A stretch of DNA of 63,680 nucleotides, the filler included. It is 14 parts of 14 records of this genome, joined end to end, with 100 filler letters (N's around TTAATTAATTAA, not from the genome) between each part and the next. Parts side by side here need not be neighbours in the genome. Positions count along the whole stretch, not along the records: positions 1 to 4,798 come from SRR7504441_56874; positions 4,899 to 11,381 come from SRR7504441_56881; positions 11,482 to 15,821 come from SRR7504441_56884; positions 15,922 to 19,037 come from SRR7504441_56897; positions 19,138 to 22,891 come from SRR7504441_56914; positions 22,992 to 26,949 come from SRR7504441_56915; positions 27,050 to 31,244 come from SRR7504441_56942; positions 31,345 to 36,177 come from SRR7504441_57604; 6 more parts are not named here. One strand, written 5' to 3'. Under the pieces are notes generated by a model that worked only from the letters and a program-made list of their open reading frames with translations, ran no database searches and had not been told where the DNA came from. Shown here one piece after another: positions 1 to 40,097 of this stretch. Made by a program: the position numbers and the translations under genes. Position 1 is the stretch's first letter; every line of letters starts with the position of its first letter.

Positions 1-548
1 CCCCCCCCCCCGGCCCACCAGCACGAGTAGGCTGGGGTGTCGTAGCCCGGCTGGATCATCGCTAGTTCGTCCATCGTCAGCCCGCGCTCTTGGGCCCACC
101 CAGCCACCCGGCTGCCCGGCCCGAGCTCCCGGATGTACGCGTGGTGGCACTGCGCGTCGACCTCCGCAGCGAGCGCCGCCCCTTCCGGCCCCGAGCGCTG
201 CATTAGCGCGGCGACGGCGCAGGGCACGCCCGCGTGGTCTATGAAGATGGGGGTGCGGCCTTTGGCTGGGTCAAGGTTTGTGGGGAACTGGCCGCCCGAG
301 ATGTACTCCGATAGCGCCGAGAGCGAGGCCCGCCGGGCCTGGCTGCTGGCGGGGCTCAGCCCGGGGAGTTGGGCACCGGACAGCTGGGCGAGCACCCACC
401 GGAGATGGGCCGAGATCCTGCGCCCCGCTGAACCTCCCGCCGGGCCGGGCTGGTGCCTGGTCTGCTCCGAGTCCCACCCGGGGAGCGGCGGCCGGCCACG
501 GAACGCCACGAAACCGGCGTCGCCGACCACGGAGTTGACAGGAGCCAT
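1..548 (-). CDS. Conserved hypothetical protein of a bacterial-type family (RI..HL / FP.N / P.FID..G..CAV / GLT..E.AMIQP.Y motifs); 3' end runs off the contig
   Basis: Manual translation from ATG 548: MAPVNSVVGD...SEQTR|ISAHLRWV...YISGGQFPTNLDPAKGRTPIFIDHAGVPCAVAALM...WAQERGLTMDELAMIQPGY. Probable in-frame 39-nt GC-AG intron at 418-456. Absent from the ORF track because there is no stop before the edge. Confidence 0.7.
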   Translation of the reverse strand, partial: MAPVNSVVGDAGFVAFRGRPPLPGWDSEQTRHQPGPAGGSAGRRISAHLRWVLAQLSGAQLPGLSPASSQARRASLSALSEYISGGQFPTNLDPAKGRTPIFIDHAGVPCAVAALMQRSGPEGAALAAEVDAQCHHAYIRELGPGSRVAGWAQERGLTMDELAMIQPGYDTPAYSCWWAGGG

Positions 549-1066
549 GATGGAGCACTCGGCGCCTCTCCAGAGATCAGTTGTGACACTAGGAGATCTT
601 AACGGACGCGGAGGCATCCCGCGGAGGAGCAGCCCCGGCAGTGACCGCTGGAGGCGCTGTGCTGCGGGGCGGGCGGGGAGGCGGAGGCGCCTGCGCTGCG
701 GCCGGCCAAGGAGGCGCCCGCCGGTATTGCAATCAAGCCCGGGCGCAAGCCGGGCAGATTTGTGGTGCAGACCGGCAGCGGCCAGCGAGTAACCGCGAGC
801 GGGCACACCGTCACCGAAGACTTCAACGGCATATCCATGAGCCGAGTAGACGCCCAGCCCAAGTAGACGTCCGGTTCCACACGATTTGCAGCAGCACGCC
901 AAGAGCGGCTCGAGGAGACGCGGCGGGTCGTTGTTTACTGCTAGGGGTCATGCCAGGGGTCTACGAGGGGTCTACCAGTACAAAGCTATAGCTAGCGTTT
1001 ACCTTTACTTATGCCTGCCGGGCTTCTCTAGTTGTATACACATACTCTTAGCAGCCTAGAGCGGCT

Positions 1067-3637
1067 TCAATACTTGCCGGCCTCCCAAATGTCGATCAGG
1101 GCGAGTGTGGCGCCCCAGTGGTAGAGCGGGTTGCTGTTGGACACGTCGTCGCCCCGACCGGTGTCTGGGCTCAGGTTCTCGTGCACGTGGTGCTTGGCCA
1201 GCCACTCGACAAGCAATGCCTCCCGGCCCTGCACCGCCAGCTGCCTCCGGGCGGTGGCCACCTCGGATATGTTGGCGTACAACGGGTGCCGCAGTCCTAG
1301 CCAGACCAGCAGGTTGAGCGGGCCCCACACTCGGCCCCGCCAATACGAATTGTCGCCGTACGCCGGGTCAGACGCCGGAGTGGACGGCAGCGCGTAGCGG
1401 CAGCGGCTCCTGTTGAGTGCGCCGGCCATCTCGCCCACGCAGTAGCCGGTCGGGGAAAGCAGCCAGTGGATGGCCATCGCCCTGGCTTGTTCAGCCGTGG
1501 CAGTGCCGGAGAGCATCGGGTAGAAGGAAGTGGGCGAGCTGTGCTGGTTGAACGCGCTGGTGTCCACTTGGTAGTTGAGGAAGATCTTAGCCTGATCGCT
1601 CCACAGCTGGGCCTGCAGCCGGGTCGCCATCTGGGCTGCGCGCGCCCTGAACATCTCGGAGTCTGTCTCGTTCCCTAGCGCAGTCGCCAGCTCGGCCAGC
1701 GCGTGGCACTCCGAGATGTACTGGCTGGTCATGCCCACGTCGTAGACCAGCAGCTTTGAGCGAGCCGGGTCCCAGCTGACCGCGTCGTACATGGGCGAGT
1801 TGTCCATCCCGGTCTCCCATATAGCGGCCTGCTTGGTGTGCCCGTCGTGAGGGGCAGTGCTCACTGAATCGGACCCGACACTCACCAGGTTGGCAGGCCC
1901 GAGCAGCCGGCGCTCGAGGACCCATTGGTTCCAGGTCTTCAGGTCGTCATACAACAGCCGGACGAGCATCAAGTCGTTGAACTTGAGCCAGTTCTGGTGC
2001 AGCACCAGCGCCCCAACGTACGGCTCGGACCGGTCGTCATTGGTCCACTGGGCGCACTCGGCGTTTGGGACTTGTCCATTGACAGTGCGCCCGCGGGTGA
2101 CCATGATCAGGTTGCTGGCTGCGAGTGCCTGGTCTGACTCGGCCGCCATCATCGATAGAAAGTAAGTGTCCCAGTCCCACACGATGAACGGGTTCACGCC
2201 AAACGTCCGGCTCACGGGGGTGACCACCTTGACCCGCTGGTCCCAGACCGTGTTCCATCCGATCACGGTCCTCATCGCTTCGGCTGCATCCCGCGTCCTC
2301 CCCACTTCACTCCGCGGGTACCGCCTGTCCAGCCCCTCTACCAGCTCGCGCTCTCGGGCTTCCAGCACCGCAGCTGCCTCGGGGTCCGACAGCGGGGCGC
2401 CGAGGCCCTCGCCGGCCGAGATGTACACTGGCCGGTCAAGCCTGACTGCGAGCGCATTGGGCGGCATCAGCCCAGCCAACCCCGCAGGCAGCCGCCGGTC
2501 CGAGCTCGGCAGGCCGCCCGGGACGTACAGCTGGAGCTCCGGGAGCCCGGTGGGTCGGGCGCGCACCAGAGCGGTGCGGGCGCTGTAGTTGGAGATTGTT
2601 AGCGAGCCGCAGAGCGCCAGGAAGTGGCCCGGCATCCCGGCCGAGCCATTGACTGCGAGGCAGTCGAAGAAGAACCCGGGAGCCACCACCAGCCACAGAT
2701 CGCCGGCCTGGACGGCGGGCTGGTTGGGCAGCGCGCGGATGACTAGGCTGTGCCCGGACCGGTCGAGATGACCCGAGCTGATAGTGACATTGGCTCGCTG
2801 GGCGTTGCTCCCGTTCCATTGATCGACCCGCTGCGCAAACGAGCTGAAGCTGCCGTTGAAGCTGTGGTGGCCGGGCCGCACCATGCACTCCCGCTCGTCG
2901 GGGCACTTGTCCACTAGTCCGTTAACGAACAGCCTGCCGCTCCGCCAGAGCTGCAAGTCGGCCCCGAAGCCGGACGGCAGGTGGAGCTGTCTGGCGGCCG
3001 ACTCCCGCATCCAGCTGTTCCAGCCCACCCCCAGCCGGCCCTGCAGCTGCTGCCGCCACAGCTCGGGCTCGCTGATCACCGGGCTGAGCGCGCTCGTCGG
3101 GATCGGCTCGAGCGGCCTTCCGCCGGCGGCCCACAGCACCGATACGGTGCCGTTGTGCGAGAGCCACTCGAGCCGCAGGTGCACCCCCGAGGCCATCTTG
3201 TGCGTCACGTTGTCCCGGCCCGCGAACAGGCTTGCGTCGGCCACTGGCTCCCACGGGCCGCACCCGCCGGGCAGCGCGCCCGACCGGTCGGCTCCCGGCG
3301 GCCCGACTGGGGCGTCGCACGAGGAGTCGACGATGATGTGGTCGTCCACCCAGAGCCGGACGGCCGCACCCGGGCCCACCTTCACCGCGAATTGGGTCGG
3401 GCCGGGGGCCGGGGCGGTGAGCGTGCCGTCCAGCCGGGCCGAGAAGACGGCGGCCGGCCCGAGGCAGTCGGCCGGGCGGTCGAGCTGGAGAGTCGGGAGC
3501 TCCGTGCTGCAGATCTGGCGACCGAAGGCGAGCACTGCGTCCTTGTGCCACTGCACGCGCACCCCGCCGCCTGCCGCAGAGCTTATCGTCAGCCCCACCA
3601 GCAGGCCAATCGCCGCCCACGACTGGAGCGTGGCCAT
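1067..3637 (-). CDS. Secreted PA14-like + GH63/MGH1-like (alpha/alpha)6 glycoside hydrolase
   Basis: 856-aa intronless ORF; signal peptide; PA14-like 'VRLWVDDHIIVD'; WDWDTYF, ETGMDNSPMYD, YWRGRVWGP, YHWG motifs. Confidence 0.8.
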   Translation of the reverse strand: MATLQSWAAIGLLVGLTISSAAGGGVRVQWHKDAVLAFGRQICSTELPTLQLDRPADCLGPAAVFSARLDGTLTAPAPGPTQFAVKVGPGAAVRLWVDDHIIVDSSCDAPVGPPGADRSGALPGGCGPWEPVADASLFAGRDNVTHKMASGVHLRLEWLSHNGTVSVLWAAGGRPLEPIPTSALSPVISEPELWRQQLQGRLGVGWNSWMRESAARQLHLPSGFGADLQLWRSGRLFVNGLVDKCPDERECMVRPGHHSFNGSFSSFAQRVDQWNGSNAQRANVTISSGHLDRSGHSLVIRALPNQPAVQAGDLWLVVAPGFFFDCLAVNGSAGMPGHFLALCGSLTISNYSARTALVRARPTGLPELQLYVPGGLPSSDRRLPAGLAGLMPPNALAVRLDRPVYISAGEGLGAPLSDPEAAAVLEARERELVEGLDRRYPRSEVGRTRDAAEAMRTVIGWNTVWDQRVKVVTPVSRTFGVNPFIVWDWDTYFLSMMAAESDQALAASNLIMVTRGRTVNGQVPNAECAQWTNDDRSEPYVGALVLHQNWLKFNDLMLVRLLYDDLKTWNQWVLERRLLGPANLVSVGSDSVSTAPHDGHTKQAAIWETGMDNSPMYDAVSWDPARSKLLVYDVGMTSQYISECHALAELATALGNETDSEMFRARAAQMATRLQAQLWSDQAKIFLNYQVDTSAFNQHSSPTSFYPMLSGTATAEQARAMAIHWLLSPTGYCVGEMAGALNRSRCRYALPSTPASDPAYGDNSYWRGRVWGPLNLLVWLGLRHPLYANISEVATARRQLAVQGREALLVEWLAKHHVHENLSPDTGRGDDVSNSNPLYHWGATLALIDIWEAGKY

Positions 3638-4798: not shown

Positions 4799-4898
4799 NN
4801 NNNNNNNNNNNNNNNNNNNNNNNNNNNNNNNNNNNNNNNNNNTTAATTAATTAANNNNNNNNNNNNNNNNNNNNNNNNNNNNNNNNNNNNNNNNNNNN
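4799..4898. other. Artificial contig linker N44-TTAATTAATTAA-N44 (first of 13; others start at 11382, 15822, 19038, 22892, 26950, 31245, 36178, 42017, 45346, 49621, 53950, 59559)
   Basis: Identical 100-nt N-padded spacer carrying stop codons in all six frames. Confidence 0.98.
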
Positions 4899-4922
4899 CC
4901 GGCCGGAGCTCGAGGACTCCGA

Positions 4923-6107: not shown

Positions 6108-6180
6108 TGATGTTGCCGTTACCGCCACGGCAGGCCACCTGAAGCTGATGGCAGTGTACGGCAGGACGCTGTGCTGCCAA

Positions 6181-7090
6181 ATGGGCAGCTGGGGTGCCGT
6201 CCGGGGACTGTGCCTGGTGGCTGGCCGGGCAGGAATTGCCGCACGAGCTGAGCAGGAGGTCGCTGAGCTGCTCGACCCGCTCGAGACCAGCCTTGAGTAC
6301 CGGGGCGGGATCCGGTTCTACGTGCACAACGGCACTCAGCGCCGGCTGCCCGGGGTCACCTCGGTGCTCAACCGCACCCGGAGCGAGCGAAGTCGCGAGG
6401 CAGGCGGCCCACCCAGCCAGGGCCGAGCCGGTGCAGGCACTCAGGAGCTGGAAGGAACGGGTCGGGGCGGAGGAGGCCACCCGGATCTCGCAGGCAGCGA
6501 TCAAACGGGGCAACGCGCTGCACAGCTGGATCGAGCAGTGGGTGCGCGGGTTGGAGCCCCCGGTTCTCGAGCCGGAAGTGCTCCCGTACGCAGTGAGCGT
6601 TAAGCCGGTACTTGAGGCGCTCTCGTCCGTCCGGTTAGTCGAAGCCCCAGTGCTGCACAACGGACTAGGATTCGGTACGCTGGCAGCGGCACAGTGGTGA
6701 GCCGCGGGCAGCGGGCACAGTGGATCTGGTGGCGAGCCTGAACGAGGAGGCGTGTGCAATCTGTTGTCTGGCTGAAAAGCTGTATGCAGGTTTATCTAAT
6801 TGATTGGAAGACCTCGCTCCGACCTAAGCAAAAGCTAGCGTACTTGAACGACTACCCACTGCAGTCAGCCGGTGCGTGGTCAGCTGGCGGCGGGCGAGGG
6901 CCGGACAGCCTACCTCGGAGCGATCGCGCAGAGCTACCCGGAGCTGAAGGTTTCGCGCGCGCTGATCATCGTGGCGCTCCCGGATCAGCCGGCGGAGGTG
7001 TGGGAGTTCAGCAGGGAGGAGATGCACAGATTTTGGGACCAATGGGTGGCCCGCCTGCACCAGTTTCAGCTCATCGAGCAGGCAACCTAG
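6181..7090 (+). CDS. MGME1: MGME1-like mitochondrial PD-(D/E)XK exonuclease, 4 introns
   Basis: Spliced protein: LPGVTSVL...LRSWKERVG...RGNALH...FAGTVDLVA...YLIDWKTS...YPLQSAAY; introns 6400-6436 (GC), 6675-6711, 6750-6789 (GC), 6872-6908. Confidence 0.8.
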
Positions 7091-7258
7091 CCCACCTCCT
7101 GCTGCGCCTTCTTTGATACCGTACTCGCATTACCAATTGGGTTACTGTACCAATTATTGTACACTTAGTACAATATTATTACAATATTATCGCATTAAAT
7201 GTTTAACATCAACGTTTCAAGAGTTTTAAATTCCTACGAAGCATACTAGTTGAAGATC

Positions 7259-7450
7259 GAGAGGGGTGGGGTCCCCTCTCCTGCTGAGGCCCAGTTGGAG
7301 GGGCTAAGCGCTTGAGCCTACTGTAGGCTGGACCCATCAAGATTCGGCACTCCGACAGTGTGTCACGCTTGATAGTGTAGTTCGCATAATTATAACGCGT
7401 CTGCACCTCCGACTTAAGTAAGGACTGGAGGGTTAGTATCCTATCCTCCT
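7259..7450. ncRNA. Candidate structured non-coding RNA (unassigned)
   Basis: Run of consecutive hairpins in an intergenic region (GAGAGGGG/CCCCTCTC, AGCCTAC/GTAGGCT, ATCAAG/CTTGAT, GTGTAG/CTGCAC, GGAGG/CCTCC). Confidence 0.3.
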
Positions 7451-7826: not shown

Positions 7827-8413
7827 ATGATGGCCGGAAACCCGATGGTGCCAGTGATGGCAGTAGGCAAGCAGATGGTACCCAGCCTGCCAGGGGTGGC
7901 TGCGAGCCCGCCGGCAGATCACTGCCCCCACACGGGACCGAATGGGGCTGCTCTTCCGAGGTGGCCGGCCGGCCGGAGGCGACTGGCAACTGGGCGGGCA
8001 GCGATGGACCGGGACGGAAACGGCGTGATCAACCTGAACGACTTCTCGCCCCAGCTGCGCAGCCAGAGCGGGGCGGTGCATCTGCACGTGCAGAGCATAA
8101 CGGACGAGTTGGCCCGCAACTTCGACTTCAACGGCGACCGCAGCATTACCGAGGGCGAGTTCCTAGGCATGGTAGCCCCTCGGTCGGGGTAAGCCTGGAG
8201 CAGACGGGTTTGTGCTGTTGGTGCTCAAGCGACGGGGCGCAGCTCTTCCGGCGGTGGGGCGCTAAGGGCGGGCGGGGCGAGCGCAGGCAGGCTGCAGTGG
8301 GCGACCAACTGAGCCAGCTGATGCTTGGGCTGGACAACGAGATGAACATGCTGATCCAAGACTTTGAGCGACACCTGGCCGGGGGCGACGAGGCGCTTTC
8401 GGCGTTCAGATAG
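7827..8413 (+). CDS. Small EF-hand calcium-binding protein, multi-exon
   Basis: DRDGNGVINLNDF and DFNGDRSITEGEF EF-hand loops; short introns; exon boundaries approximate. Confidence 0.7.
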
Positions 8414-8475
8414 AGCGGGCACGACCGGCTGCCTTGGTGCATCCCGGGATGTATATTTTTAATAGAGAGTACGAG

Positions 8476-8503: not shown

Positions 8504-8516
8504 TAATTAATCCGTT

Positions 8517-11063
8517 TTAAGCATCGACCCCGGGTTCGTCTTGCGGCTCTACCGGTAGTGAATCGGGCTGGCCACCGGCCGACACGAGCAACGGCGGCTT
8601 GGTTGGGTCGTACCGGTTGGGGAAGCTTCTCTTGGCCAGGCCCTCATATTTCCAGGTCCGTTCGGCCTCTTGTAGCGCCCACTCAAGGTCACGCTTCTCC
8701 GCAGTGCCCTGCCCCCAGGCTCTAGCCGGCACATGCCAGGCACGCACATCATCGGCCTCGTCGAGCCGGTTTGCGAGCTCAACCAGGTGCGGCGGGTCAG
8801 GCCATCCACTCCCTCCTAGTCTCACCATGGCCGTCAGCTCGTCTGGCCTCTCGCTAAAATAGTCCTGGCAGTTCAACTTGAACTGGTCCCGCCCAACTGA
8901 CTCACCGCCCGGCAGTATCCCCGCCTGCCCCTCCCTCATCCGCCACCCAAACGAACTCGCACCGCTTGACCGGCTGGGTCCGGAGCACCCCGCACTGCCA
9001 GGAACTGTTCAAGCTCTTTAGGCTCTATCAGGTCGTCCCCACCAGCCACCGCAGCCACAATCGTATCGACGGCTGACTCCGGCGGCAGCGTGAGAGAGGC
9101 CATCCCGTCATGCAGACATTGCTTTGCCCTGGCCCACTCACCACGCGATATGTACCACTCGCCGTGCGCACGAAGCACTTGAGCTGTCTCAAGCCCATCC
9201 AGTCCGCCTGGTAGACTCTCCGGGTCGCCTTGGTCCGGCTCAGCCCAAGGGTACTCGGTGTAGTTCGGCCCGTACCCACCCTTCCCTCGCCGAATCCCAT
9301 CACGCTCATTCGGTTTGCCCGCCTTGGCCGCAGCTTCCTCCTGGGCCTTGACCCGCACTTTGACCTCGCTGGCCGAGGGCTGGTCCAGCTCCGGTCGGGG
9401 CCTGCCCTCGATACGGTCGTCCCATAGCTTGCTAACTGCCCGCTCATTCTCCATTTTTATCGACACAAACCGGTCGGCTTCCGACTGCCCAAATTCGATC
9501 TCCCCGGACACCTTGGGCTGGTTCCAGTGCAGTCTGCCCTCTTGGCTGCCGCTGCCCACCAGCTTGCCCGCTCTGACCAGCGCGTAGTGCTCGCACAGAG
9601 GCGCCGGCCCGCTCGCCTCTGCGCTCCCTCCTGGAGCTGAGTCGAACCTGCGCTTGGCTTCGTCCGGCTCTAACCTCCACCGACGCGGGGTGGCCCGCTC
9701 CGTGCCGGCCACCTGCGGTCCGCGCCAGGTACCGTTGGCGCCCACCATCTCCGGCTGGTACCCCTCTGGATGCTCGGTCCATCCCCCCCTGGCCAGACCG
9801 CACTTCATCCCTTCGCGCGAGTAAGGCGCAGTCGTGCTCGGGTAGTGCCTCAGCTCAGCCCATACCCCGGCGTCTCGAGCCTTCTCCGGACTGCCCCGCT
9901 CGACCGGCCTGCCTGACCCGATCGAGTCCCCTGGCTGCGGCTTGTGCAGCTGCATCGGGTGCTTGGGCTCAGCCTGCGCCGCCCGCCGCTTGGCTGCGTT
10001 GGGGAAGAGCGCCGGGTCGTTCACTGCGGGGCACATATCTTGGTAGCCTTGGTTCTCATAGTCCGGCCCGCCGGCCCAAATTGGCTTACCAGCCACCCAC
10101 TCCCACGGCGGCTTGTAACTGGCCAGACGCTCCTTGCGTGCCTTGCGCTCTTCGGCCTTCTTCTGCTCCTTTTGCCTGCGCAGCTGCCGCACCGACCGAC
10201 TTTCTGCCCCCGCCACCGCATCAGAGCACACCTAACCCCGCCGGGCACCCAGCTTTTTCAGACCCTCGGCTCTCTTTCGCTCAGCAGTCTTGCCAAACAC
10301 CGATTCCCTCGCCCTGACTGCCAGCCCGTCCACCGGCGCACTCTTGGGCTCCCGCCATGGCTGGAAGAGGCTCGTGAGCGGCTCCTGGCCGGGTCTCAGC
10401 GCCCTCTCCTGTGGCTACCCACCAGCTTGCCAGCGGGGCCTGACTGTTGCGCCGCATCTTGAAGCGACCCGGTGAGTGCCTGTCGCGTGGCCTCGTCCTT
10501 GGCCACGCCCAGTGCATCCAAATCGTCCGTGTTGAGCGGCCCTACTCGCGCGTGGTTCTCCCTGCCGCCCAGTCGTGCTGCCAGCCCAGAAGATTTGACC
10601 TGAGCACCCGGATGGCCGCCAAACTACCCGCCTTGGCCGCAACGTGCCTGCACCCACTGAGCGTGGGGCGGCCGGGAGTGGCTCACAGTGCGGTGTCCCC
10701 CTGCTGGGCGTACTTGCCGCCATAGTGCTGGAGCACTACCCCCCACGAGGCCTCCTCCGGCTCGACCCCTGCCTCGTACTGCCGCGAATCCGAGGCCAGC
10801 CTGAGGAGCTTGGAGGCCTGCCGCCCAGTTCAACCACAGCACAGACCACTGTGCGCCTTTTTGTCAACCGCCACGCACAGCATGCACGCGTCGCGCGCCG
10901 AGGCCGGCTCGTCTATGTCGTACTTGGCACTCCGCTGCTCAGCGTTTACGTCCGCCACTTGCTTCTTGCATTGCTTGTTGATCGCCGACGCCTTGTCCTG
11001 CCCCTGGCTCAAACAGCGCAGCGAACCTCCCACCCGGAGAACAAGCAGCAGGAATTTGGCCAT
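8517..11063 (-). CDS. Large multi-exon hypothetical protein (weak EF-hand-like segment near the C-terminus)
   Basis: Chained ORFs 10830-11063, 8936-10231 and 8517-8939 linked by short GT/GC-AG intron candidates; start codon uncertain. Confidence 0.45.
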
Positions 11064-11877: not shown

Positions 11878-13763
11878 ATGCCAAAGAAACGTGGTGGCGG
11901 TGGCGGCGGCGGCGACAAGCGCGAGGCGTTCTTCAGCGCAATCCGGACGGAGAAGCTGGACACGATCCGGTATAGCCTGTCGCACGGAGGCATACCGGTG
12001 ACAGCGGAGGACGATGACGGGCACAGGCGCCGGCTGCGGCCGCGGTGTGTCTGACGTGGCGCAGGCCGCTCGAGATTGCAGCCACGTACGGTAAGAGCAA
12101 GTCGCTGGATCAAATGCTTCAGATCCTCGACCGGCAGCGCGTGCTGCGCGACTGCATCGACCTGCCCGACGAGGAGGGCCGGACCCCACTGATGGTGAGC
12201 TGGCGAGCTCCGCCGCCGGCCCAGGCCCGGGACAGATGGCCTGCGCCAAGGGGAATCTGGGCTGTGTCATCTCGCTGTGCAACTACAATGCTAGCATCAC
12301 CCGCAAGTGCGACAAGGGCCTCACTGCGCCCCAGTATGCCGAGAGGGCCGGCAAGCAAGTGCGTGCGCCGGCCGTAGCGCTGGCGGTGACGCGGACCGAC
12401 AGAACGTAATTGACTACTTCGCGCCCGAGAGCGAGAGCGAGGAGGAGGATGCGGCCCCGGGCGAGGGCGAGGACGAGCTCACAGCTGGCGAGAAGCGGAA
12501 GCTAAAAAAACAGCAGGTGCGCGCCGGTGCTGACCCGGCCGAGCCTACTGGCAGTTGGAGGAAAAGGAGTTTGCTGGCGTACTAAAGAAGACGGAGAACG
12601 TGTCGCTGGAGGAGGCGCACGCAGCTAAAATTGGTGCTTTGCGGTCCAATGTGCTGTGCTGACAGACAACTTGCCAGAGGAGGAGGAGAAGGCTCAGGAG
12701 GCGAAAGCGGAGATGCAGGCCGGTGCGGTGTGGCCCGAATTGAAGACGCTGCAGCATGCTGACGAAGGACGTGACGTCAAGGTGGCTGGCAGATTAGCTG
12801 CAGGCTCTAACATGCGCCAGGAACTCACATTGGTGAAGGAGCAGCCATCGGATGCGGTTGGGGGCGCTGAAGGCGGCGTCGATCCGGCGCTCTGGGGCTG
12901 CAGTTTCCTGAACAGGCTCTCGTTAAAGGTGAATCGGCGCTCGGGCCACTGCTGAGAGAGCCTGGGTAGATGCCAGCAGGCATGCTAACCTCGGTCTCAC
13001 CAGCAATAGCTCAGTTGAATGCCCTCGACGTTCTCATCTTGACTGGTCCCAGACCTCAGCCGGCCAGCCGTCCAGCCTGCTACAGGTAACGCTCTCGAGT
13101 CGCTGCCAGAGTCAATCGGCGAGATTTCAACGCTTCGTGTGCTCGAGGTGGACCAGAACGCTTTAGCGAGCGTGCCGGCTTCGATGGGGCAGCTAAGCAA
13201 GCTGGAGGTGCTCGCTGCCGGGGCGAACCGGTCGAGCTTTGGGCTACAGGTGCTAAATTTAGCCCAGAACAACATAACAACACTCGAGCCGCTGATTACA
13301 GGCATCCTGCCGGGGATGGCGGTCAGATGAGAAGGGGCTGGCAGGGAGCTTGCCCAACTTGCTCACGTTGCTGCTCGACAACAACCAAATCGTCGAGCTG
13401 GCTCTGCCATTCGGGACGGTGCCTGCACTGGTCAGCACTACAGGGCTGACTGCTGCGTGTCAGATGGAGCGGGTTCAGACAATTTCTGCTGCAGGCAACA
13501 AGCTGGAGATCATTTCAGAAGAGATGGGCTTGGTTGGTGGCTCTCTGGCCTCGCTTTCATTAGCAAACAACCAACTGACCTCGATTTCTGCCATACGTGA
13601 CCTAAAGGACAAGAAGCTAAAACATTTGAATGTGGAGGACAACCCTATCGCAGATAAGAAGGTGCTCAAGTTGCTCAATGGCTCCCGCCCGGAGGCAATC
13701 ATCAAGGAATTGCTCAAGTATTTACAAAAGGAAGGCGGTGGTGGGAAGAAGAAAAAGAAGTAG
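11878..13763 (+). CDS. Ankyrin-repeat + LRRC47-like leucine-rich-repeat protein, 11 introns
   Basis: Spliced: DDDGHRPLEIAA, EEGRTPLMMACAKGN (ankyrin); WPEL...LRRs...NPIADKKVLKLL...ELLKYL. Introns 12027-12064 (GC), 12195-12235, 12359-12402, 12517-12554, 12634-12665, 12782-12820, 12929-12969, 13046-13085, 13208-13249, 13302-13344 (GC), 13419-13463. Confidence 0.8.
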
Positions 13764-15921: not shown

Positions 15922-17034
15922 AGCCTCACTCGCCGCCTTCTGTGCTCTCGCTCCATCCAATTTGGCGACGCGCAATGCCGCTAGTTCGAGCACCTGTCAC
16001 CGCCCGTCGCCCGGGCAGCAGGGCTGGATGCCTTCGCGCCAGCAGCATCGAGGCGACCGATGCTCGCAAGAGCACGCAGCTCGCCATCGACAGCGCTGCT
16101 CACAGGCTCCCCGGGCTCGCGGCAGCAGATCCACCTGATCTGTTCGCCCCTCGGCCAGTGCTCCCGCAGCAGCAAGGCCAGCGTCTCCCTCTCCTTACTC
16201 AGCAGCTGTTCGGTGCTGGCTTCTAGCCTGGTCTGCAGCTCGGCCACCGCCTGCCCCAGCTAGACCCGCACCCAGCCAGAACCGTACCGGCGGCCAGCTG
16301 CATGTCCGCTTCTCGGCCAGCCGCTGCAGCTGCTTGGCCCGGCCGGACAGCTTGCAGTGTTCCTCGACACATTGGCGCTCGAGCACTCCTGACTCCCGAC
16401 AATCAACTCAACCGCAGCACACAACAGCCACCTGGGACCATCCGCTCGAAATCTCCGATCGCCTCCGGTAGACTCAATCCCGCCAGCAGCTCACTGCCCC
16501 GGCTGGTCCGCCGTGCGCCAGCGGCGTTCACGCACCTCGCCCGGAGCCTCGCTCCTACCCAGCTGCGCAGGTACAAGGCCACAGCCCTGTCGACAGGCGG
16601 CGTGTCGACAGCTTCGATCAGCTCATCCGCCGCGTCCAGCTGGAGCGATGCCTGCCTACCCATCCCCGCCGGCCACCCTGCGGCCGCACCGCCTGCGGGT
16701 CCACTGGATCGTCCGCCGCCTCGCCAACCACGCCGGCCATCCAGCGGCTCGCCGCGATGTCCCGCACCCCCAGAGGCAGCGATGCGTCCTCCGCCAGCGC
16801 CAGCAGCCCGGGACCCGCTGGCAGCAGCCGGAATCGGCGCTCCATCCCGCCGCGAAGCACCCTGGCTCGCTCTGTGGCCGACAGCATCGCTGGCAGCAGC
16901 CCAGGGGCCGGCCGGCCGGCGCACTGCTGGTCGCATTGTGCGATCGCATTGTCCAGCCGGCGGAGCGTTGCCCGGTCCAGACGAGAGGCCATAGCAGCCT
17001 CGAGCTTGGCCCGAAGCTCAGCCTCGGCAGGCAT
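15922..17034 (-). CDS. Hypothetical coiled-coil protein, multi-exon, 3' end uncertain
   Basis: MPAEAELRAKLEAAM... followed by chained helical ORFs separated by short intron-like segments. Confidence 0.4.
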
Positions 17035-17166: not shown

Positions 17167-18924
17167 CTAGAAAAAGTCTCGAACAAATCCCAAGTCTCGC
17201 AGGTAGGTCTCATACATCATCGAGCAGACATCATCATCCCCAAAGAAGCTCCCGTGCTCGCCTGGGGAACCAACACTCAAGCACCGGTCAGCGGGCGCCG
17301 GACCGTTCGGTATTCGACACGACAGCTTGAGAGCTAGCTTGTCCAAGCTATTGTTGATCACCTCGGCGTTGCGGGTCATCTCCTTGGCTGTGGCCCGGAG
17401 CAGCGTGCACAGCGCCTCCAGGCTGCCTTCTTGCCCGTCCGCTTGAGCAGTCCCAATCCCAAGGACCACACAGCAGCGGAAGATCTTGTCGCGCGGCCAG
17501 TCTCCACTATCATGCGCTGCCCCGGCCCAGTGAGCCGCTGCGGCCGAGCTGGCGGCACCGGCGTGGACGCATTGCTCTAGCAACGGCTGGTAGTGCCTGC
17601 AGACGGCTCAGTCGGATTGCAGTGGGCCTGTACCTTCTGAACAGCCGCTCTGCGAAGCTCGGCGGCATCATGTGATCGTTCTCGGCCCACATCACGAAGA
17701 AGAAGCCCTGTCGCCCGTGACCGGCCGGCCAGTCCCGGCTGCTACCTGTATCTTGTCCACTTTGGCCAAATTATTGTAAGCGTCGGTGGACACGCCGGGC
17801 AGCCGGACATCTGGCCCGGGCTGAGCTGCCCCGGCCGGCCGGGATCGGACCGGAGAGCTCCTTAGGGAAGCAGGTCTCGACCACCGAATTGATGGCAAAC
17901 TCCGGCACCGAGCTGCTGATCAACGAGGTTGTGGTGGTCGCCACCTGGGTGCAGTTAGCGCGCTCGCTCGTGCGAGCTGACACCTCCTTGGCGTTGACGA
18001 ACGTCTGGTCCACTGTGCAACACACCCCCGGATGTTGCGCGGCCACGCTCACAGCCAGAGCCCCGCCTATAGACAGCCCATGTGCCAGGATCCGGTTCCG
18101 CGGGATCCCTCGATGCAACAGGAAATGCACCTGCGACCAACGTTTGTTCAAGACAACTGCTGTGCACCGCAGCGTCCGCATCAAAGTAGCTCGAGAGCTC
18201 TGTGGTCTCTCCTGCCCCGGGCTGACACCACCAGCCGGCCGGGACTTGCCTTGGCTCCCGGCGTATCCCCCCATTGTGATCATGAGCACAGAGAGTCCAC
18301 GCTGCCGGTACCAAGCCCCCCTACCCCCAGCTGGCCCACTGGCCGACCGACCGCGCACCAGAGCGCCATGTCGATAGCGATGGCGCAATTGGCGTGGAAC
18401 AGGCAAACAGCCGCGTTGGTAGAGGCGGGCGGGGTCTCCAGCCTGTCCATCAGCATCAGCCGGCTCGGCCGGGCCGTTGGACCAGAGCCCATCCAGCCTA
18501 CGGCCATCCCGGGTGTTGACGTTGACTGGTTCGGCCCCGAGCCAGTCGATAATCACGCTGCCCGAGCTCGCTGGCCGCCCCCGGGCCGGCGCACTGTTTC
18601 CAGTCGTCCACGTCCACGAAGTACTCGTGCATGTGCTTGAACTCGAACAAGTCCTGGAAAGACATGCCCTGCCCGCCCAGATCGCCCCCCACCCGTGCTG
18701 CCGCCCGCCTTGGCCACGAAGAAGGTCTTGCTCCGGATCGCCCGGACTAGGACGCCATCGTCCTTCCCGTCCGCCGGCCCCAGCGGCCTGTAACCGCTCA
18801 CACGAGGCCCTGCCCGGGCGCACTTCTCCACCGCGGCCGGCACTAACTCGCGGAGCGCCTTGTCCGGCCCGGGCGAGACGCTGATGCACCCCGCCCCCTC
18901 CGACGAACTGGCACAACCTCCCAT
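17167..18924 (-). CDS. ABHD-family alpha/beta hydrolase, probably N-myristoylated, multi-exon
   Basis: MGGC start; TRDGRRLDGLW, FHAN, GGYAGSQGETTELSSYFDA, ILAHGLSIGG; GC-AG introns 18669-18708 and 18212-18249, plus several GT-AG introns. Confidence 0.75.
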
Positions 18925-28401: not shown

Positions 28402-31077
28402 ATGCAGGCTGCCGCCGCCGCAGCAGCCGCCGCCACTGTGGCAGTGCTGGCAGCAGTGATCGGGTCGCTCCTGGACGCGCCACCGAACCACTGCAGAGAT
28501 CCGCCGGACCGGGACGCCTTCAGCGCCGTGTACAGCCAGCGCGGATACCGGCTGATGCGGTTCGAGGCCCAACAGACCGGGGCGGCCCGAGCGGTGCTGC
28601 TCTTCGTACACGGCCACGCCGGCTCGTACCGCCAGGGCCGTACCATCGCTTCGCTGCTCGGGCCGGAGCGAGTGGCCATGTACGCGGTGGACTTCGGTGA
28701 TGAGTGGAGCGCGCTGTCCGAGCTGACGCTGCAGCGACAGGCGACCGCGCGCCCGGCCGCTGGCTGAGAGCAGGGGGCAGGCCAGGTCCGCTCCGTCTAG
28801 CCGGTGAGCGGCCCCAGTGATGGCGGGGATAGGTTTGTAAGGGACTGCACGCAAGTGATCGCCCGGGCGGTGGGGCCCGGCGCCGGAGGGGTGCTGCTAG
28901 GCCACTCAATGGGCGGTGTGGTTGCGATGGCCAGCTTGCTTCTGCCCGGGTTTAGGCTCAGATGGTCCGGACTAGTGACGCTCGGGACCCCGCACCGGGC
29001 TCCGGTGTTTCCAGTGAGCCATGGGATGCTCAATTTGTATGCCAAGCTGCACCAGGCCCAGGCCGACGGCCGCTTTGGCTCAATCCCAGTGATTTCAATC
29101 AGCGGCGGGGCCCGGGACCTGCTGGTTCGGTCCGACTTGACACAGCTGGGTAGCAGCACGCTGGCTGACGATCTGCAGGGCCTATCGGTGCCAACTGTTG
29201 ATGTGGCTGGGCTATGGCAGACAGTGGACCATCGGTCAGGCTAAGGCCTGCTCCAAGCTGAGCTCCCGGCAGGTGCTTGCTCTGGTGCGAGCAGCTGGTG
29301 CTGCCCCTGTGCCAACTGCTTCGACAATGCCTGTCCAGCCCAGGGCTCTCCCCCAAAGCTACGCTCAAGGCGGCTCGGAACCAACTGTTAAGCCATGCGC
29401 CAGATCCTGTACTGTCGGACGTGATAGCCGAGCCATCAGAGTGCAGTACACTCGAGCAGTCCAGTTGGAACTGGCAGCCTGGGCCTGGCTGCGGCAGCCT
29501 GTGCTGCTTTCGATGGCCACTGGCTAATTTCAAGCACACAGAGCGCACCACCATTGCCATCACAAGCTCTATTCGAGAGCTAATTGTTCTCGGGGTAGAC
29601 GGTTCCGGCTTAGTGACTCGCCTGCCGCTCCAGCCTGTGAGACAGCCAGCCACTAGTCACAGTGCCGAGGCGGCTTTCACAATGTTAGTGCTCAACAGCA
29701 CGGCGCAGCTCGATCGACTAGTGCTCATATCGTCTGGAGCCGGCTGGGCCCGAGGTGCCGAGCAGTGGACCTCACGCAGGCCGACACTGAGTCTTGGTCG
29801 CAGGTGAGCTGACTCAGTGGCACCAGCTAGAGCTGAAAGCTGATAACAGCTGGCGCACTCTGCTGGCTCTAGGATTATTAATTCCAGCCGACTCTGCACC
29901 TGTTCTGTTCGTGGACCTGCCTTCCCTTCACCGCTGGATTGCACTACAGCTGACGTTCAAACCTGTTGATCCCACCAAGGCTGTTCGCAGCGTGGTGCTA
30001 CATTCACCGCCTGGTTCCTGCCAGCAACAAATCGGCAGCTCAAAAACTTGCTTCCTTGGTCCATCTGAGCCTCGTGAAAAGCTGACACTCCTCCCATCAG
30101 GTTGCACCTGCAGCTGATCTGACAATTGCTGAGTGATACTCTCTCAGGATCGGGCGAACACCTGTACTTTTCGTTCCAAGTCTTGCTGACACTCGGCTAC
30201 ATGTTGCATGCCCTGGGCCCTGTGGTTCTCTCGTTTGCGGTCCTCTGCTGCATGCTATGGATTGTAGTCGAAGGCACCAGCCTTTATGCCTCCAATAGCA
30301 TGTTAGCCACCGCACTCGTTGCACTCGGTCCTCTGATGGTTTGGCTCTTGACTGGGGCGACATGGCTTCGCTCTGATAGGTGCCATCACATTGCCAGAGA
30401 CGATTGTTTACCATATGTGGCAGATCAGCTAGCTCGTTTGAGGCCATAACTGGAGAGCCACTATCGATCTGGGTCGGTTGCTTGGTTTGGTTGCTGGCCT
30501 GTAGTTTTGCAGCAATGTCTCTCTGCATCTGGCAGCTAGTTTGTAGCATCCTTGGTATTGGCTACTTCCTGATAGCTCGCTCCTGTATGCACTTGCCGAG
30601 CTTCCAGAAGCCACATCTTGTGCTTGCATGGAGTGTGGGTCTATTGCTGATGCCTCTTACCACCTGTTGGGTACTCCTTGGGTCGACTATGCTCATAGAT
30701 GCCTCGCAACCGAATGCATGCCCTCAGATACGTGCGCTGCTGTTCGCCTATGCAGTAGCAATGGCATTCCAAACGCTGACACATATAGCTGCTCGTGACA
30801 CTGAATGGTCAACATGGTCGTCTACACTTTGTTTCACGACGCCAATTGGTGAGCTCTGAAGTAGTCCTAGAAGGTTCCAACTAAAGCTGTGCCAGGTGCT
30901 CATTTGATCTGCTTATGTCGGCAAGATTGCCGTCATCTACAAAACACTTCGCTTTCGGGGCTATGCGCAGTTTCCTATGCATTATTCTATGGCCCACACC
31001 TTGTCCCCAGAGTCCTTGATGCCACAACTTGTATGGCTGTTGTTTCCTTAGCCTCAAATCTGTGGAACCGTTGGTGA
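28402..31077 (+). CDS. PGAP1: GPI inositol-deacylase (PGAP1/BST1), multi-exon
   Basis: LFVHGHAGSYRQGR, VDFGDE, GHSMGG, TLGTPH, SISGG.RD.LV, VDHR|CLLWCEQL; C-terminal TMs; includes 5-nt micro-exon 28781-28785. Confidence 0.85.
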
Positions 31078-37354: not shown

Positions 37355-37411
37355 CCAGCGCATTCTATGCCAGCGTTCCGAACCGTGCCGTTATTTTTCA
37401 CGGCGATAAGA

Positions 37412-40097
37412 ATGCACAGCCGACGGCTCAAGCGGGTGCTCCGAGCGGCTCAAGCGGGGCGGGGTTCTCTACGGCGGTCGGCGAGCACCGGGGCGGAGGA
37501 GCAGGCGGATGTGTTGGTGGTGGGCGGCGGGGTGGTCGGGACCTCTGTGGCCTACCACCTGGCCAAGATGTCCGGCGGCCGGCGCGAGGTCACGCTGCTC
37601 GAGAGAGATCAGCTCACCTCCGGCACCACCTGGCACGCGGCCGGGCTGATGGTCACGTTCGGCTCGCTCTCCGAGACGTCGACCGAGTTCCGCAAGTACG
37701 CCAAGCAGCTGTACGCCGGGGAGCTCGAACGGGAGACCGGACTGAGCACCGGGTTCAAGGGCTGCGGGTTTATCGAGCTGGCCACCTGCCCAGACCGGCT
37801 GGAGGAATACCGGCGGGTGGCCGCGTTCAACCGCTACTGCGGAGTCGACGTGCGCGAGATCTCGCCGGGCGAGGTGGCGGAGCGATTCCCGCTCTGCAGA
37901 GTGGATGACGTGCTGGCCGGGTTCTTGGTGGAGGACGACGGGCGGGTCAACCCGGTGGACGCCACCATGGCGCTGGCCAAGGGCGCCCGCATGCACGGGG
38001 CTACTGTTAGAGAGGCGGCCCCTGTGGCGCGGCTGCTCACGGAGCCTGTGGGCGGGCGGGCCGGCCGGCGGAGGGCGGCGGGGGTGGAGCTGGACGATGG
38101 CACGGTGATCCGAGCCCAGACGGTGATCAACTGCAGCGGGATGTGGGCCCGGCAGATGAGCGAGCAGTGCGGCGTGGTCTGCCCCAACCAGGCAGCCGAG
38201 CATTATTACCTAGTGACGGACGCGATGGAGGACGTCCACAAGGACTGGCCGGTAGTGGAAGACCCGAGCTCGTACACGTACATCCGACCGGAGGGCGCGG
38301 GACTGATGGTCGGGCTGTTCGAGCCGGTGGCGGCAAGTTGGGCGGTGGACGGGGTGCCCAAGGAGTTTAGTTTCGGTGAGATATCTCCGGACTGGGAACG
38401 GATGGCGCCCTTCCTAGAGAAAGCGATGGGCCGGGTGCCCCGCACGCTGGAGGTGGGGGCCAAGACATTCTTCTGCGGGCCGGAGAGCTTCACCCCGGAC
38501 CTGGGTCCGATCGTGGGCGAGAGTCCTGAGGTGGATGGTTTGTTCATCGCTGCGGGGATGAATTCAATCGGGATCTTGACTGGTCCTGGCGTGGGCCGAC
38601 TAGTGGCCCAGTGGGTGCTAGATGGGTACCCTGAGATGGACGTTACCGGGATCCACCCCGACAGGTTCCAGCAGTACCAGACTACCCCGACCTACCGCTC
38701 TCTAAGGGTGGTGGAAAGCCTCGGAAAGGTCTGCCGCTTCTGGTGCAGGGCTCACCGGTGCGGTAACAGGTGTACAAGTGCCACTATCCAAATGAGCAAG
38801 TGCTCACCTGCCGGGGGGCGAAGCACTCGCCGCTGTACGCTCAGTTGGCCCAGGCCGGCGCCTTCTTCAGGGACGTGTCTGGGTTTGAATCTGCCGATTG
38901 GTTCGCTGCTGGGTCACAGCCACCGAGCCCTGAAGAGGTCAAGCTCACGTGGGGCCGTCCGGAGTGGTTTGACTTCTGGGCGGCCGAGCACCAAGCCTGC
39001 CGGGAGAGGGCGGTGCTGATGGACATGAGCTTCATGTCCAAATTCAGAGTGCAGGCAGCTGATGGCTCGGCGCGGCTTGAGCCGGTGGCAGGGGGCAGAG
39101 GCCGGGGAATTGCTCGAGCGCCTATCAACTGCGCACGTGGACGGCGATTCGGAGCGGATCACTTACACGCAGTGGCTCAATCCCCAGGCAGCGGTCGAGG
39201 CGGCCTAGCCTGATTCCGGGGCAGGGCACTCTGGAGGCTGATTTGACCGTCACCAAGCTCGCTCACGACGACTTCATGGTGGTCGCTTCGGACACAGCGC
39301 ACCGGCACGTTGAGGCCATTCTGCAACGGAACGCGCCGGCCGGCGTGGCCATCGCTGATGTGACGGGCGCAATGGCCCAGATTAACTTGCAGGGCCCAAA
39401 CTCGCGCGCAATCCTACAGAGCCTCACCTCTCGAGACCTTTCAGATAGCGCCTTCCCGTTCCGGAGTGCCTGCCGGCTCTCGATGGGATTCGCAGAGCCG
39501 CTGTGTACTCGGATCACTTATGTGGGCGAGCTTGGGTTTGAGCTTTATGTGCCGGTCGAGCAATCCGTCCACGTGTATCAGTTGCTGCTCGAGGCTGGGG
39601 CTGAGCACGGTCTGCAGCACGCTGGTCTCAAGGCGCTGGCCAGCCTGCGGATGGAGAAGAGCTACCGTGACTATGGGCATGATGTAGATAATACTGACCC
39701 AATCCTAGAGACTGGGCTGGGGTTCACGTGCAGGCCGGAGGGTGGCTATATCGGCGCAGAGGCGGTGCAGCGGTACCGTGAGGCCAATCAAGACAGTGGT
39801 AAATTACGGTTGGCTAAGCGGGTGGTCGGAGTCCTGGTGAAGGAGAGCGAGCCGCTGCTGTACCATGGTGAGGTGCTTTGGCGGGACGGCAAGCGGGTGG
39901 GCGATGTGCGAGCGGCTTCGTACGGGCACACCCTGGGCGGAGCAGTTGGGCTGGCCCTGGTGCATGGCGAGCCGTATGTCACGCCCAAGTACTTGCGCGA
40001 GGGCGACTGGCAAGTCGAGGTGGCCGGACAGCGGCACCCAGTTGCGCTTTCGCTCAAGCCGCTGTACGATCCAACCAATCTCAAGATCAAAAGCTAG
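37412..40097 (+). CDS. Mitochondrial dimethylglycine/sarcosine dehydrogenase family (FAD oxidoreductase + GcvT), 3 introns
   Basis: VVGGGVVGTS, LTSGTTWHAAG, CGPESFTPD, RITYVGELGFELY, SLRMEK; introns 38729-38769, 39055-39091 (GC), 39188-39224 (GC). Confidence 0.9.

What the first reader, a model, noticed from the sequence alone, without database searches (positions are those of the whole stretch)
418..39224. Unusual mini-intron system: frequent non-consensus GC donors and G-rich acceptors
Seen: frame-restoring introns are tightly sized (mostly 37-45 nt). At least ten start with GC: 418-456, 6400-6436, 6750-6789, 12027-12064, 13302-13344, 18212-18249, 18669-18708, 28741-28780, 39055-39091, 39188-39224. 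This is roughly a quarter of those I reconstructed. All ten follow an exonic AG, yet +3..+6 are mostly non-consensus (GCGCCG, GCATCC, GCAGGC, GCGTGT, GCGACC, GCAGCG, GCGGGC). Acceptors are often G-rich (GGGCAG, GGGGTAG, GGGGATAG) with no pyrimidine tract, and a CTGA-like branch element often lies shortly upstream. Known: GC-AG introns are about 1% in most eukaryotes and normally need a near-perfect AG|GCAAGT; elevated rates are reported in a few algal lineages. Inference: intron definition here relies on length and exonic AG, possibly with divergent U1/U5/U6 or U2AF.
Basis: partly seen in the sequence, partly recalled or inferred. Interest (0 to 1): 0.7.

Follow-up and report, generated by a model that had tools for sequence, protein, structure and literature searches.

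The report
Tiny introns often starting with GC
An uncultured, GC-rich marine protist (closest named relative: Telonema) interrupts its genes with 37-45-base introns, roughly one in six of which begins with GC instead of GT; this is real, but the same habit is already known from other GC-rich marine microbes.

Summary
All ten listed intervals are AG|GC...CAG|G, 37-43 nt. Nine have support from homologues at both ends. At 28741 only the GC donor is supported, and only by exclusion.

An eleventh GC-AG intron (8167-8203) is seen spliced in RNA contigs of three runs from two studies. None of the ten is covered by RNA.

In 34 introns checked by RNA or homology, 10 start with GC. That set is biased towards genes with claimed GC donors. 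A self-trained gene finder gives 13-15 GC of 110-114, against 0-1 GA or GG decoys. A curated set gives 14 of 86 (16%, interval 10-25%). So "a quarter" is somewhat high.

Lengths run 37-45 nt with a hard floor at 37. GC donors always follow exonic AG (10/10, against 9/24 for GT). There is no pyrimidine tract.

GC-AG abundance in GC-rich marine protists is already published: Emiliania, Aureococcus, Micromonas pusilla and Pelagomonas. This scan also noted the same habit on other pieces of this genome (e1-7377686, e1-7377916). I file it as a new member of a known kind. The divergent-snRNA idea is untested.

The parts
418..456 (-). GC-AG intron, 39 nt, in frame and without a stop, in a bacterial-type gene (1-548, minus strand)
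   Evidence: for the sequence; the 13 codons are absent from 3 of 3 bacterial homologues (L081-L083). The spliced form scores higher than the unspliced form (88.2/86.3/82.8 against 81.6/77.0/76.6 bits).
6400..6436 (+). GC-AG intron, 37 nt, in a PD-(D/E)XK nuclease-family gene
   Evidence: against a profile of 79 homologues, the GC model scores 232.1 bits with no gap. The competing GT intron 6364-6403 scores 214.4 bits with a gap. The family was named by Pfam on homologue P0021.
6750..6789 (+). GC-AG intron, 40 nt, same gene
   Evidence: the junction lies in a gap-free stretch of the profile alignment. The neighbouring GT introns 6675-6711 and 6872-6908 are also gap-free.
7878..7917 (+). GT-AG intron, 40 nt, EF-hand gene (7827-8413)
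   Evidence: an RNA contig of run X5 skips it.
7961..8001 (+). GT-AG intron, 41 nt, EF-hand gene
   Evidence: skipped in RNA contigs of X2 and X5.
8167..8203 (+). GC-AG intron, 37 nt, EF-hand gene.
   Evidence: skipped in RNA contigs of X2, X5 and X8 (two studies), with 53, 51 and 32 letters on the shorter side. The joint can slide by 2 places, and only the +2 register gives an AG end, which makes it GC..AG.
8254..8290 (+). GT-AG intron, 37 nt, EF-hand gene
   Evidence: skipped in RNA contigs of X2, X5 and X8.
12027..12064 (+). GC-AG intron, 38 nt, in an ankyrin-LRR gene (11878-13763) with 11 introns
   Evidence: gap-free junction against P0008 (Telonema subtile transcript, 70% identity over the full length) and against P0009, P0010 and P0013.
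13302..13344 (+). GC-AG intron, 43 nt, same gene
   Evidence: gap-free junction against the same four transcript-derived homologues.
18212..18249 (-). GC-AG intron, 38 nt, the only one with GCAAGT, in an alpha/beta-hydrolase-like gene (17167-19035) with 13 predicted introns
   Evidence: gap-free against P0004. P0005 has a 1-residue gap and P0006 a 2-residue gap nearby.
18669..18708 (-). GC-AG intron, 40 nt, same gene
   Evidence: gap-free junction against P0004, P0005 and P0006.
28741..28780 (+). GC donor of a PGAP1-like gene. The acceptor is ambiguous: 28780 followed by a 5-nt exon and a GT intron 28786-32, or 28800 giving one 60-nt GC-AG intron.
   Evidence: Pfam PGAP1 matches on both sides; both exons are in one frame and are separated by two in-frame stops. 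No GT-AG solution is shorter than 93 nt.
39055..39091 (+). GC-AG intron, 37 nt, in a dimethylglycine/sarcosine-dehydrogenase-like gene (37412-40097)
   Evidence: no gap at the junction in 7 of 7 intron-free homologous loci. An in-frame GT donor 6 nt upstream would delete two residues that all seven keep; in two relatives' read-through proteins, similarity stops at the same residue and the next codon is GTN.
39188..39224 (+). GC-AG intron, 37 nt, same gene
   Evidence: no gap at the junction in 7 of 7 loci.
10818..10856 (-). Candidate GC-AG intron, 39 nt, not validated
   Evidence: chosen by the self-trained gene finder. It contains an in-frame stop.
15994..16031 (-). Candidate GC-AG intron, 38 nt, not validated
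   Evidence: chosen by the gene finder. Its length shifts the frame.

Best explanation
These are ordinary (U2-type) spliceosomal introns of an uncultured, GC-rich marine protist. Its closest named relative is Telonema subtile.

The introns have been squeezed to a narrow 37-45 nt band, with a floor at 37 nt. They are richer in G+C than the exons and have no pyrimidine tract. Their remaining signals are a weak G|GTGCG-type donor, an A about 12 nt before the 3' end, and a GGCAG|G acceptor.

About one donor in six has C instead of T at position +2. I think this is a tolerated T-to-C change, favoured by the GC-biased make-up of the genome. It survives only where the neighbouring positions make up for the lost pair with U1 snRNA: A at -2 and G at -1 always, and A at +3 mostly.

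Shown here: the introns are removed or must be removed, the GC ends, the share of GC donors, the AG and +3 association, the length band, and the composition.

Inferred: pairing with a standard U1, mutation bias as the driver, and recognition of the intron as a unit of fixed size.
For: Independent support for 10 GC-AG introns:
- RNA contigs skip 8167-8203 in 3 of the 4 runs laid, from two studies.
- Gap-free alignments of spliced proteins to intron-free or transcript-derived homologues support 39055 and 39188 (7 of 7 loci), 18212 and 18669, and 12027 and 13302.
- A profile of 79 homologues supports 6400 and 6750.
- Three bacterial homologues support 418.

Share of GC donors:
- 10 of 34 validated introns.
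- 13-15 of 110-114 in three runs of the gene finder from very different priors. Decoys took 0 GA and 1 GG.
- 14 of 86 in the curated set, Wilson interval 10-25%, p = 2e-9 against a 2% rate.
- The finder recovered all 4 RNA-confirmed introns exactly.

Compensation: exonic AG in 10/10 GC against 9/24 GT donors (p = 7e-4). A at +3 in 7/10 against 4/24 (p = 0.005).

Length: 34 validated introns span 37-45 nt, with ten at 37 and none shorter.

Other signals: A at -12 in 33 of 86 introns, against about 12% at neighbouring positions. Intron interiors are 73% G+C, exons 62%.

Published parallel: GC-AG shares of 39.6%, 22.2% and 7.7% in the three most GC-rich of 61 genomes, with a standard U1 5' end (PMC3033335, passages).
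Against:
- The validated set is biased, because five of its six genes were chosen for having claimed GC donors.
- The gene finder erred in both directions. It took a GT alternative at 6400. It probably called GC at 60140, where a GTAAGT donor lies 6 nt upstream.
- The finder also missed two in-frame introns and misplaced one acceptor in one gene.
- The GT donor consensus (G at +3, C at +4) is itself a poor match to a standard U1. That leaves room for a changed machinery.
- The window is 14 short contigs of a bin, so some contigs could come from another organism.
- The tie to Telonema rests on one gene.
Confidence: 0.85

Rival explanations
1. The splicing machinery itself has changed. The changes could be an altered U1 or U6 pairing register and 3' splice-site recognition without U2AF65. 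In that case GC donors and G-rich 3' ends would be native signals of this lineage rather than tolerated deviations.
For: - The GT donors have an unusual consensus. At +3, G is found in 15 of 24. At +4, C is found in 16 of 24.
- There is no pyrimidine tract: T makes up 15% of the last 20 nt.
- The introns are richer in G+C than the exons.
- There is a sharp 37-nt floor.
Against: - GC donors need A at -2 and G at -1, and prefer A at +3. These are the positions that a standard U1 5' end pairs with (established knowledge).
- Aureococcus and Micromonas pusilla have many GC-AG introns with a standard U1 5' end (PMC3033335).
- No snRNA or U2AF gene could be examined here.
Confidence: 0.12
2. The GC donors are artefacts. 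They could be wrong gene models where a nearby GT donor is the real one, or T-to-C errors of a metagenome assembly.
For: - Competing in-frame GT donors do exist at 6364, 6 nt upstream of 39055, and 6 nt upstream of 60140.
- The gene finder is error-prone.
Against: - The RNA joint at 8167 allows no GT-AG register.
- Homologues reject the GT alternatives at 6400 by 17.7 bits.
- At 39055 the GT alternative would cause a two-residue deletion against 7 of 7 homologues.
- Random errors would not be tied to an exonic AG (10/10 against 9/24).
- GA and GG decoys are hardly ever chosen.
Confidence: 0.02
3. The GC-AG introns belong to the minor (U12-type) class.
For: Two candidates (13302 and 15994) begin GCATCC, which resembles the U12 donor core. 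The U12 consensus is recalled from memory.
Against: - The other GC donors lack that core.
- No intron shows a U12-type branch motif. Their 3' parts look like those of the GT introns.
- GC and GT introns have the same lengths, 37-43 nt.
Confidence: 0.01

Closest known systems
GC-AG-rich introns of Emiliania huxleyi (Feldmesser et al. 2014, PMC4028052; passages read)
   Same: A GC-rich marine protist in which GC donors are a major class. They made up 56% of 241 manually mapped junctions, and some were checked by RT-PCR. The acceptor stays AG. Standard gene finders mispredict such junctions.
   Different: The share here is lower, about 12-16% and at most about a quarter. The introns here are 37-45 nt. 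I saw no intron-size figure for Emiliania in the passages read. The lineage is different.
GC-AG introns of Aureococcus anophagefferens, Micromonas pusilla and Pelagomonas calceolata (Iwata and Gotoh 2011, PMC3033335, passages; bioRxiv 10.1101/2024.10.30.620910, one passage)
   Same: The GC-AG share is high: 39.6% and 22.2% from EST evidence, and about 14-17% and 14% predicted. The papers link it to high genomic G+C. The U1 5' end is standard where it was examined.
   Different: The pelagophytes are intron-poor (0.14-0.92 introns per gene), with average introns of 103-177 bp. Pelagomonas peaks near 210 bp, the introner size (PMC9481584). Here some genes carry 11-13 introns in under 2 kb, all 37-45 nt.
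GC-AG introns of animals and plants (about 1%; 1.3% over 61 species, PMC3033335)
   Same: They are U2-type introns in which a C at +2 is offset by a better match at neighbouring donor positions. That this holds in animals and plants is recalled. The offset itself was measured here.
   Different: The offset here is short: -2, -1 and +3 only. Only 1 of the 10 listed introns has GCAAGT. The class is 10 or more times as common here.
Ultra-short introns of ciliates such as Paramecium (about 25 bp; PMC5014332, abstract seen in the search listing only)
   Same: A very narrow length band close to a physical minimum. There may also be a shortage of introns whose length is a multiple of three (6 of 34 here, p = 0.035). 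The Paramecium case of that shortage is recalled, not read.
   Different: Ciliate introns are AT-rich (recalled) and shorter. These are 73% G+C and have a floor at 37 nt.

Membership tests
U2-type spliceosomal introns with GC-AG ends | The interval is absent from mature RNA | tested here: met
8167-8203 is skipped in RNA contigs of 3 of the 4 runs laid, from two studies. For nine of them the spliced product matches intron-free homologues.
U2-type spliceosomal introns with GC-AG ends | GC at the 5' end and AG at the 3' end, with exact junctions | tested here: met
   for the sequence. Junctions are gap-free against homologues. Only the acceptor of 28741 is ambiguous.
U2-type spliceosomal introns with GC-AG ends | A stronger match at the other donor positions offsets C at +2 | tested here: met
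   Exonic AG in 10/10 against 9/24. A at +3 in 7/10 against 4/24.
U2-type spliceosomal introns with GC-AG ends | Branch-point adenosine upstream of the 3' splice site | tested here: inconclusive
   A peaks at -12 (33 of 86 introns). T[GA]A with its A at -9 to -19 occurs in 48 of 86. No lariat data.
U2-type spliceosomal introns with GC-AG ends | Processed by U1/U2/U4/U5/U6 snRNPs | not testable with these tools
   No snRNA gene in the window. No whole genome held.
U12-type (minor) introns | Conserved donor core and a conserved branch motif near the 3' end (consensus recalled) | tested here: not met
   Only 2 of 13 GC candidates begin GCATCC. No conserved branch motif was seen in the listed sequences.
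GC-donor-rich intron sets of GC-rich marine protists | High genomic G+C together with a GC-AG share of 10% or more | tested here: met
   Contigs are 56-67% G+C. GC-AG is 13-15 of 110-114 and 14 of 86.
Introner elements (mobile introns in many near-identical copies) | Many introns that are near-identical along their length | tested here: not met
   Among the predicted introns of 70 nt or less, one pair shares more than one 12-mer (a 16-nt block, 26065-26106 and 26403-26451). The other listed pairs share a single 12-mer. One window cannot exclude families elsewhere in the genome.

The most novel reading that the evidence does not exclude
This lineage may recognise its introns mainly as units of fixed size, through three features:
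- a roughly 37-nt molecular ruler between the splice sites;
- a G-rich, pyrimidine-poor 3' module read by something other than a classical U2AF65-pyrimidine-tract contact;
- a donor defined chiefly by the exon-side AG|G.

Position +2 would then be nearly free to drift between T and C. That would make it a natural case of 5' splice-site choice that depends little on intron-side pairing with U1.
Probability: 0.15. Interest if true: 0.65.

Novelty: new member of a known kind. Interest (0 to 1): 0.35.

Why it matters
Practical value. Gene finders that expect GT-AG, longer introns and pyrimidine tracts will mis-model genes of this lineage. My own finder chose a wrong GT intron at 6400 and missed in-frame introns. 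Protein catalogues from marine metagenome bins will therefore carry frameshifted or truncated products unless GC donors and a 37-45 nt length model are allowed.

Biological value. This adds a probable telonemid, a deep and little-sampled branch of eukaryotes, to the GC-rich marine protists with many GC-AG introns. It shows the trait together with extreme intron shortening and G-rich introns. That combination bears on how little sequence information a spliceosome needs.

I found no paper in the held library that describes the nuclear splice signals of Telonemia. One 2026 preprint reports what it calls the first genomic data for Telonemia. The passages I read say nothing about splice sites.

Tried and rejected
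Only one contig could be laid. On contig 4899-11381 the RNA contigs covered only the EF-hand gene. Positions 6400 and 6750 had no cover, which says nothing about their expression.
- The runs found hold only small shares of the stretch (0.16 or less). I name no habitat or strain from them.
- No whole genome is held, so there are no genome-wide logos and no snRNA or U2AF search.
- Rfam found nothing in the window, and no tRNA genes were found.
- A codon-only gene finder without splice-site models was too noisy to count donors. A first version of the trained finder timed out.
- Without strand masks the finder merged genes across antisense ORFs. I then masked the opposite strand of Pfam-supported ORFs.
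- Solved structures did not settle the PGAP1 junction. Exon 1 found no PGAP1 chain, and the exon 3 alignment starts at residue 19. Pfam coordinates there are only roughly consistent with either model.
- U12-type introns and introner copies were considered and rejected (see Membership tests).
- 60140-60176 was dropped as a GC intron, because a GTAAGT donor lies 6 nt upstream in the same frame.
- 43170-43212 (GC, acceptor GAG|G) stays in the curated count but is doubtful.
Full report
**What the window is.** The 63,680 bases are not one stretch of chromosome. They are 14 contigs of 3.1-6.5 kb, joined by spacers of 44 N, a 12-base stop-codon linker and 44 N. G+C is 56-67% per contig. No whole genome is held for it. 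Public runs that share words with it are marine or aquatic metagenomes and metatranscriptomes, all with small shares (0.16 or less). Pfam finds eukaryote-type and bacterial-type genes side by side on the same contigs.

**The observation.** Each reads exonic AG | GC ... CAG | G, and lengths are 37-43 nt. Three are on the minus strand.

**RNA evidence.** Only one contig could be laid, because the spacers block longer stretches. On contig 4899-11381, RNA contigs of four runs covered one gene, the EF-hand gene at 7827-8413.
- They show four joints, skipping 40, 41, 37 and 37 bases.
- Three are GT-AG.
- The fourth (8167-8203) was seen in three runs of two studies, with 32-53 letters on the shorter side. 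It can only be read as GC-AG once the 2-base sliding is allowed for.
It is the one case not chosen for having a GC donor.

- *Dimethylglycine/sarcosine-dehydrogenase-like gene (37412-40097).* The spliced protein aligns to 7 of 7 intron-free loci with no gap at any of its three junctions, including the GC introns 39055 and 39188. The in-frame GT donor 6 nt upstream of 39055 would remove two residues that all seven keep. In two relatives' read-through proteins, similarity stops at the same residue and continues with a GTN codon. This suggests a GT donor at the same position in relatives. That is inferred from protein, not seen in DNA.
- *Alpha/beta-hydrolase-like gene (17167-19035, minus).* The spliced protein is gap-free against P0004 from residue 59 to 282. 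That span crosses eight junctions, including both GC introns. There is a one-residue gap five residues after the junction at 279.33, and three more junctions further on are gap-free locally. The first two predicted introns are not covered.
- *Ankyrin-LRR gene (11878-13763).* The best named hit is a Telonema subtile transcript protein from EukProt, 70% identical over its full length. Eight of nine predicted junctions are gap-free, both GC introns among them. The alignment also exposed errors of my finder. One acceptor was 12 nt off (the real intron is 12634-12677). Two in-frame GT introns had been missed (13208-13249 and 13419-13463). The gene has 11 introns: 9 GT and 2 GC.
- *PD-(D/E)XK nuclease-family gene (to 7090).* I built a profile from 79 of 103 representatives, those 180-300 residues long. 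My finder's GT alternative 6364-6403 scores 214.4 bits with a gap. The junctions at 6675, 6750 (GC) and 6872 are gap-free.
- *Gene at 1-548 (minus).* It has only bacterial homologues in the genome collection. All three lack the 13 codons of 418-456, and the spliced form scores higher. A real 13-residue insertion cannot be excluded, but its ends coincide exactly with AG|GC...CAG|G.
- *PGAP1-like gene.* The two Pfam-matched exons share a frame and are separated by two in-frame stops. The GC donor at 28741 is part of every short solution that keeps the conserved exon end. The shortest GT-AG solution is 93 nt and would delete conserved residues. It stays open whether the acceptor is 28780 (followed by a 5-nt exon and a GT intron) or 28800 (one 60-nt intron).

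**How common are GC donors?** There are three estimates.
- *Validated introns.* Among 34 validated introns, 10 are GC. Five of the six genes were picked because of claimed GC donors, so this figure is biased upwards.
- *Self-trained gene finder.* I wrote a dynamic-programming gene finder that trains itself on codon use, donor and acceptor matrices and length. It recovered all four RNA-confirmed introns exactly. The opposite strand of Pfam-supported ORFs was masked. Three runs from different priors converged as follows:
  - T:C at 50:50: 15 GC of 110;
  - T:C at 999:1: 13 GC of 113;
  - all four GN donors equal: 98 GT, 15 GC, 0 GA, 1 GG of 114.
- *Curated set.* This set has 86 introns, 14 of them GC: 16%, Wilson interval 10-25%, p = 2e-9 against a 2% rate. 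It joins the 34 validated introns to predicted introns that are 33-50 nt long and needed for the frame. I left out three predictions shown or judged wrong (6364-6403, 12634-12665, 60140-60176). I also left out predictions in 4900-5600, where the strand is doubtful.

So GC donors are far above the usual 1%, but nearer one in six or seven than one in four.

**Anatomy.**
- *Length.* Validated introns span 37-45 nt, with ten at exactly 37 and none shorter. In the curated set, one unvalidated intron of 34 nt falls below 37.
- *GT donors.* They read G|GTGCG loosely: G at -1 in 62 of 71, G at +3 in 52 of 71, C at +4 in 39 of 71.
- *GC donors.* They always follow AG (10/10 against 9/24, p = 7e-4). They prefer A at +3 (7/10 against 4/24, p = 0.005). 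Positions +4 to +6 show no consensus.
- *Acceptors.* CAG in 32 of 34, with G at -5 in 22, at -4 in 20 and at exon +1 in 21.
- *3' region.* The last 20 intron bases are 45% pyrimidine and 15% T, so there is no pyrimidine tract.
- *Branch candidate.* A peaks at -12 (33 of 86). T[GA]A with its A at -9 to -19 occurs in 48 of 86, most often as CTGA.
- *Composition.* Intron interiors are 73% G+C (G 42.5%), against 62% in the exons of the same genes.

**Mechanism.**
- Shown here: the removal of the introns, the junctions, and the statistical ties described above.
- Inferred from the known U1 pairing scheme: a C at +2 loses one pair with U1, and is kept only where A at -2, G at -1 and often A at +3 add pairs.
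- Inferred from the correlation with G+C published for other species: the GC-rich make-up of the genome supplies T-to-C changes (PMC3033335).
- Consistent with the data but not shown: the narrow length band and the weak internal signals suggest recognition across the intron.
- Not testable here: a changed U1, U6 or U2AF. Published cases with a standard U1 5' end make it unnecessary.

**What is known.** Passages read give the following GC-AG shares:
- Aureococcus 39.6%, Micromonas pusilla 22.2% and Chlorella sp. 7.7%, against 1.3% overall (PMC3033335);
- about 14-17% in Aureococcus strains and about 14% in Pelagomonas, with average introns of 103-177 bp and 0.14-0.92 introns per gene (bioRxiv 10.1101/2024.10.30.620910);
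- 56% of 241 junctions in Emiliania huxleyi (PMC4028052).

What differs here is the lineage, the extreme and uniform shortness of the introns, their G-richness and their density (11-13 introns in under 2 kb).

Searches for Telonema or Telonemia with intron terms found no description of their nuclear splice signals. A 2026 preprint that reports first genomic data for Telonemia says nothing about splice sites in the passages read.

Two earlier reports of this scan, on other pieces of the same genome, reached the same conclusion, with shares of about one in four and one in seven. This finding is therefore a repeat within the scan.

**Verdict.** This is a new member of a known kind, of moderate interest.

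Noticed in passing
window 4799-4898 and 12 further places: The window is 14 separate contigs joined by spacers of 44 N, a 12-base linker and 44 N. No gene order across contigs can be read from it. Features near contig ends are cut.
   Followed up: yes
window 28741-28832 (+): The PGAP1-like gene needs one of two arrangements. Either a 5-nt exon (28781-28785) sits between a 40-nt GC-AG intron and a 47-nt GT-AG intron, or there is a single 60-nt GC-AG intron ending at 28800. A 5-nt exon between two mini-introns would be unusual.
   Followed up: partly
window 1-548 (-), 37412-40097 (+), about 6300-7090 (+): Three intron-bearing genes have mostly or only prokaryote-like relatives. The gene at 1-548 matched only three bacterial MAG loci at 36-38% identity. 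The dehydrogenase-like gene is 55-66% identical to intron-free loci. The nuclease gene's relatives are 215-240-residue proteins. If these genes were acquired from bacteria, their mini-introns, including GC-AG ones, were gained afterwards.
   Followed up: no
curated set of 86 introns, whole window: GCCGGC-type palindromic 6-mers (GCCGGC, CCGGCC, CGGCCG, GGCCGG) occur in 31 of 86 introns. Each occurs in about 4-6% of 40-nt windows of the whole sequence. Their role is unknown; it could be local pairing, an enhancer or a trace of origin.
   Followed up: partly
window 26065-26106 and 26403-26451 (-): Two predicted introns of one EGF-like gene share a 16-nt block and are less GC-rich than most. This recalls the copied introns that earlier reports noted elsewhere in this genome.
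   Followed up: partly
34 validated introns: Introns whose length is a multiple of three are scarce: 6 of 34, with one third expected, p = 0.035. This would fit selection for retained introns to break the frame.
   Followed up: partly
window 7961-8001, 10562-10599, 10818-10856, 18669-18708: Several unrelated introns end in nearly the same 12-base 3' module, with CTGGGCGG just before the final CAG. This may be the preferred branch-to-acceptor unit.
   Followed up: no
window 1067-3637 (-) and 49908-52352 (-); 36278-37363 (-) and 52542-53846 (-): There are two intron-free GH63/MGH1-like glycoside hydrolase genes and two beta-lactamase-family genes, on different contigs. They are either expanded families or redundancy in the bin.
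   Followed up: no
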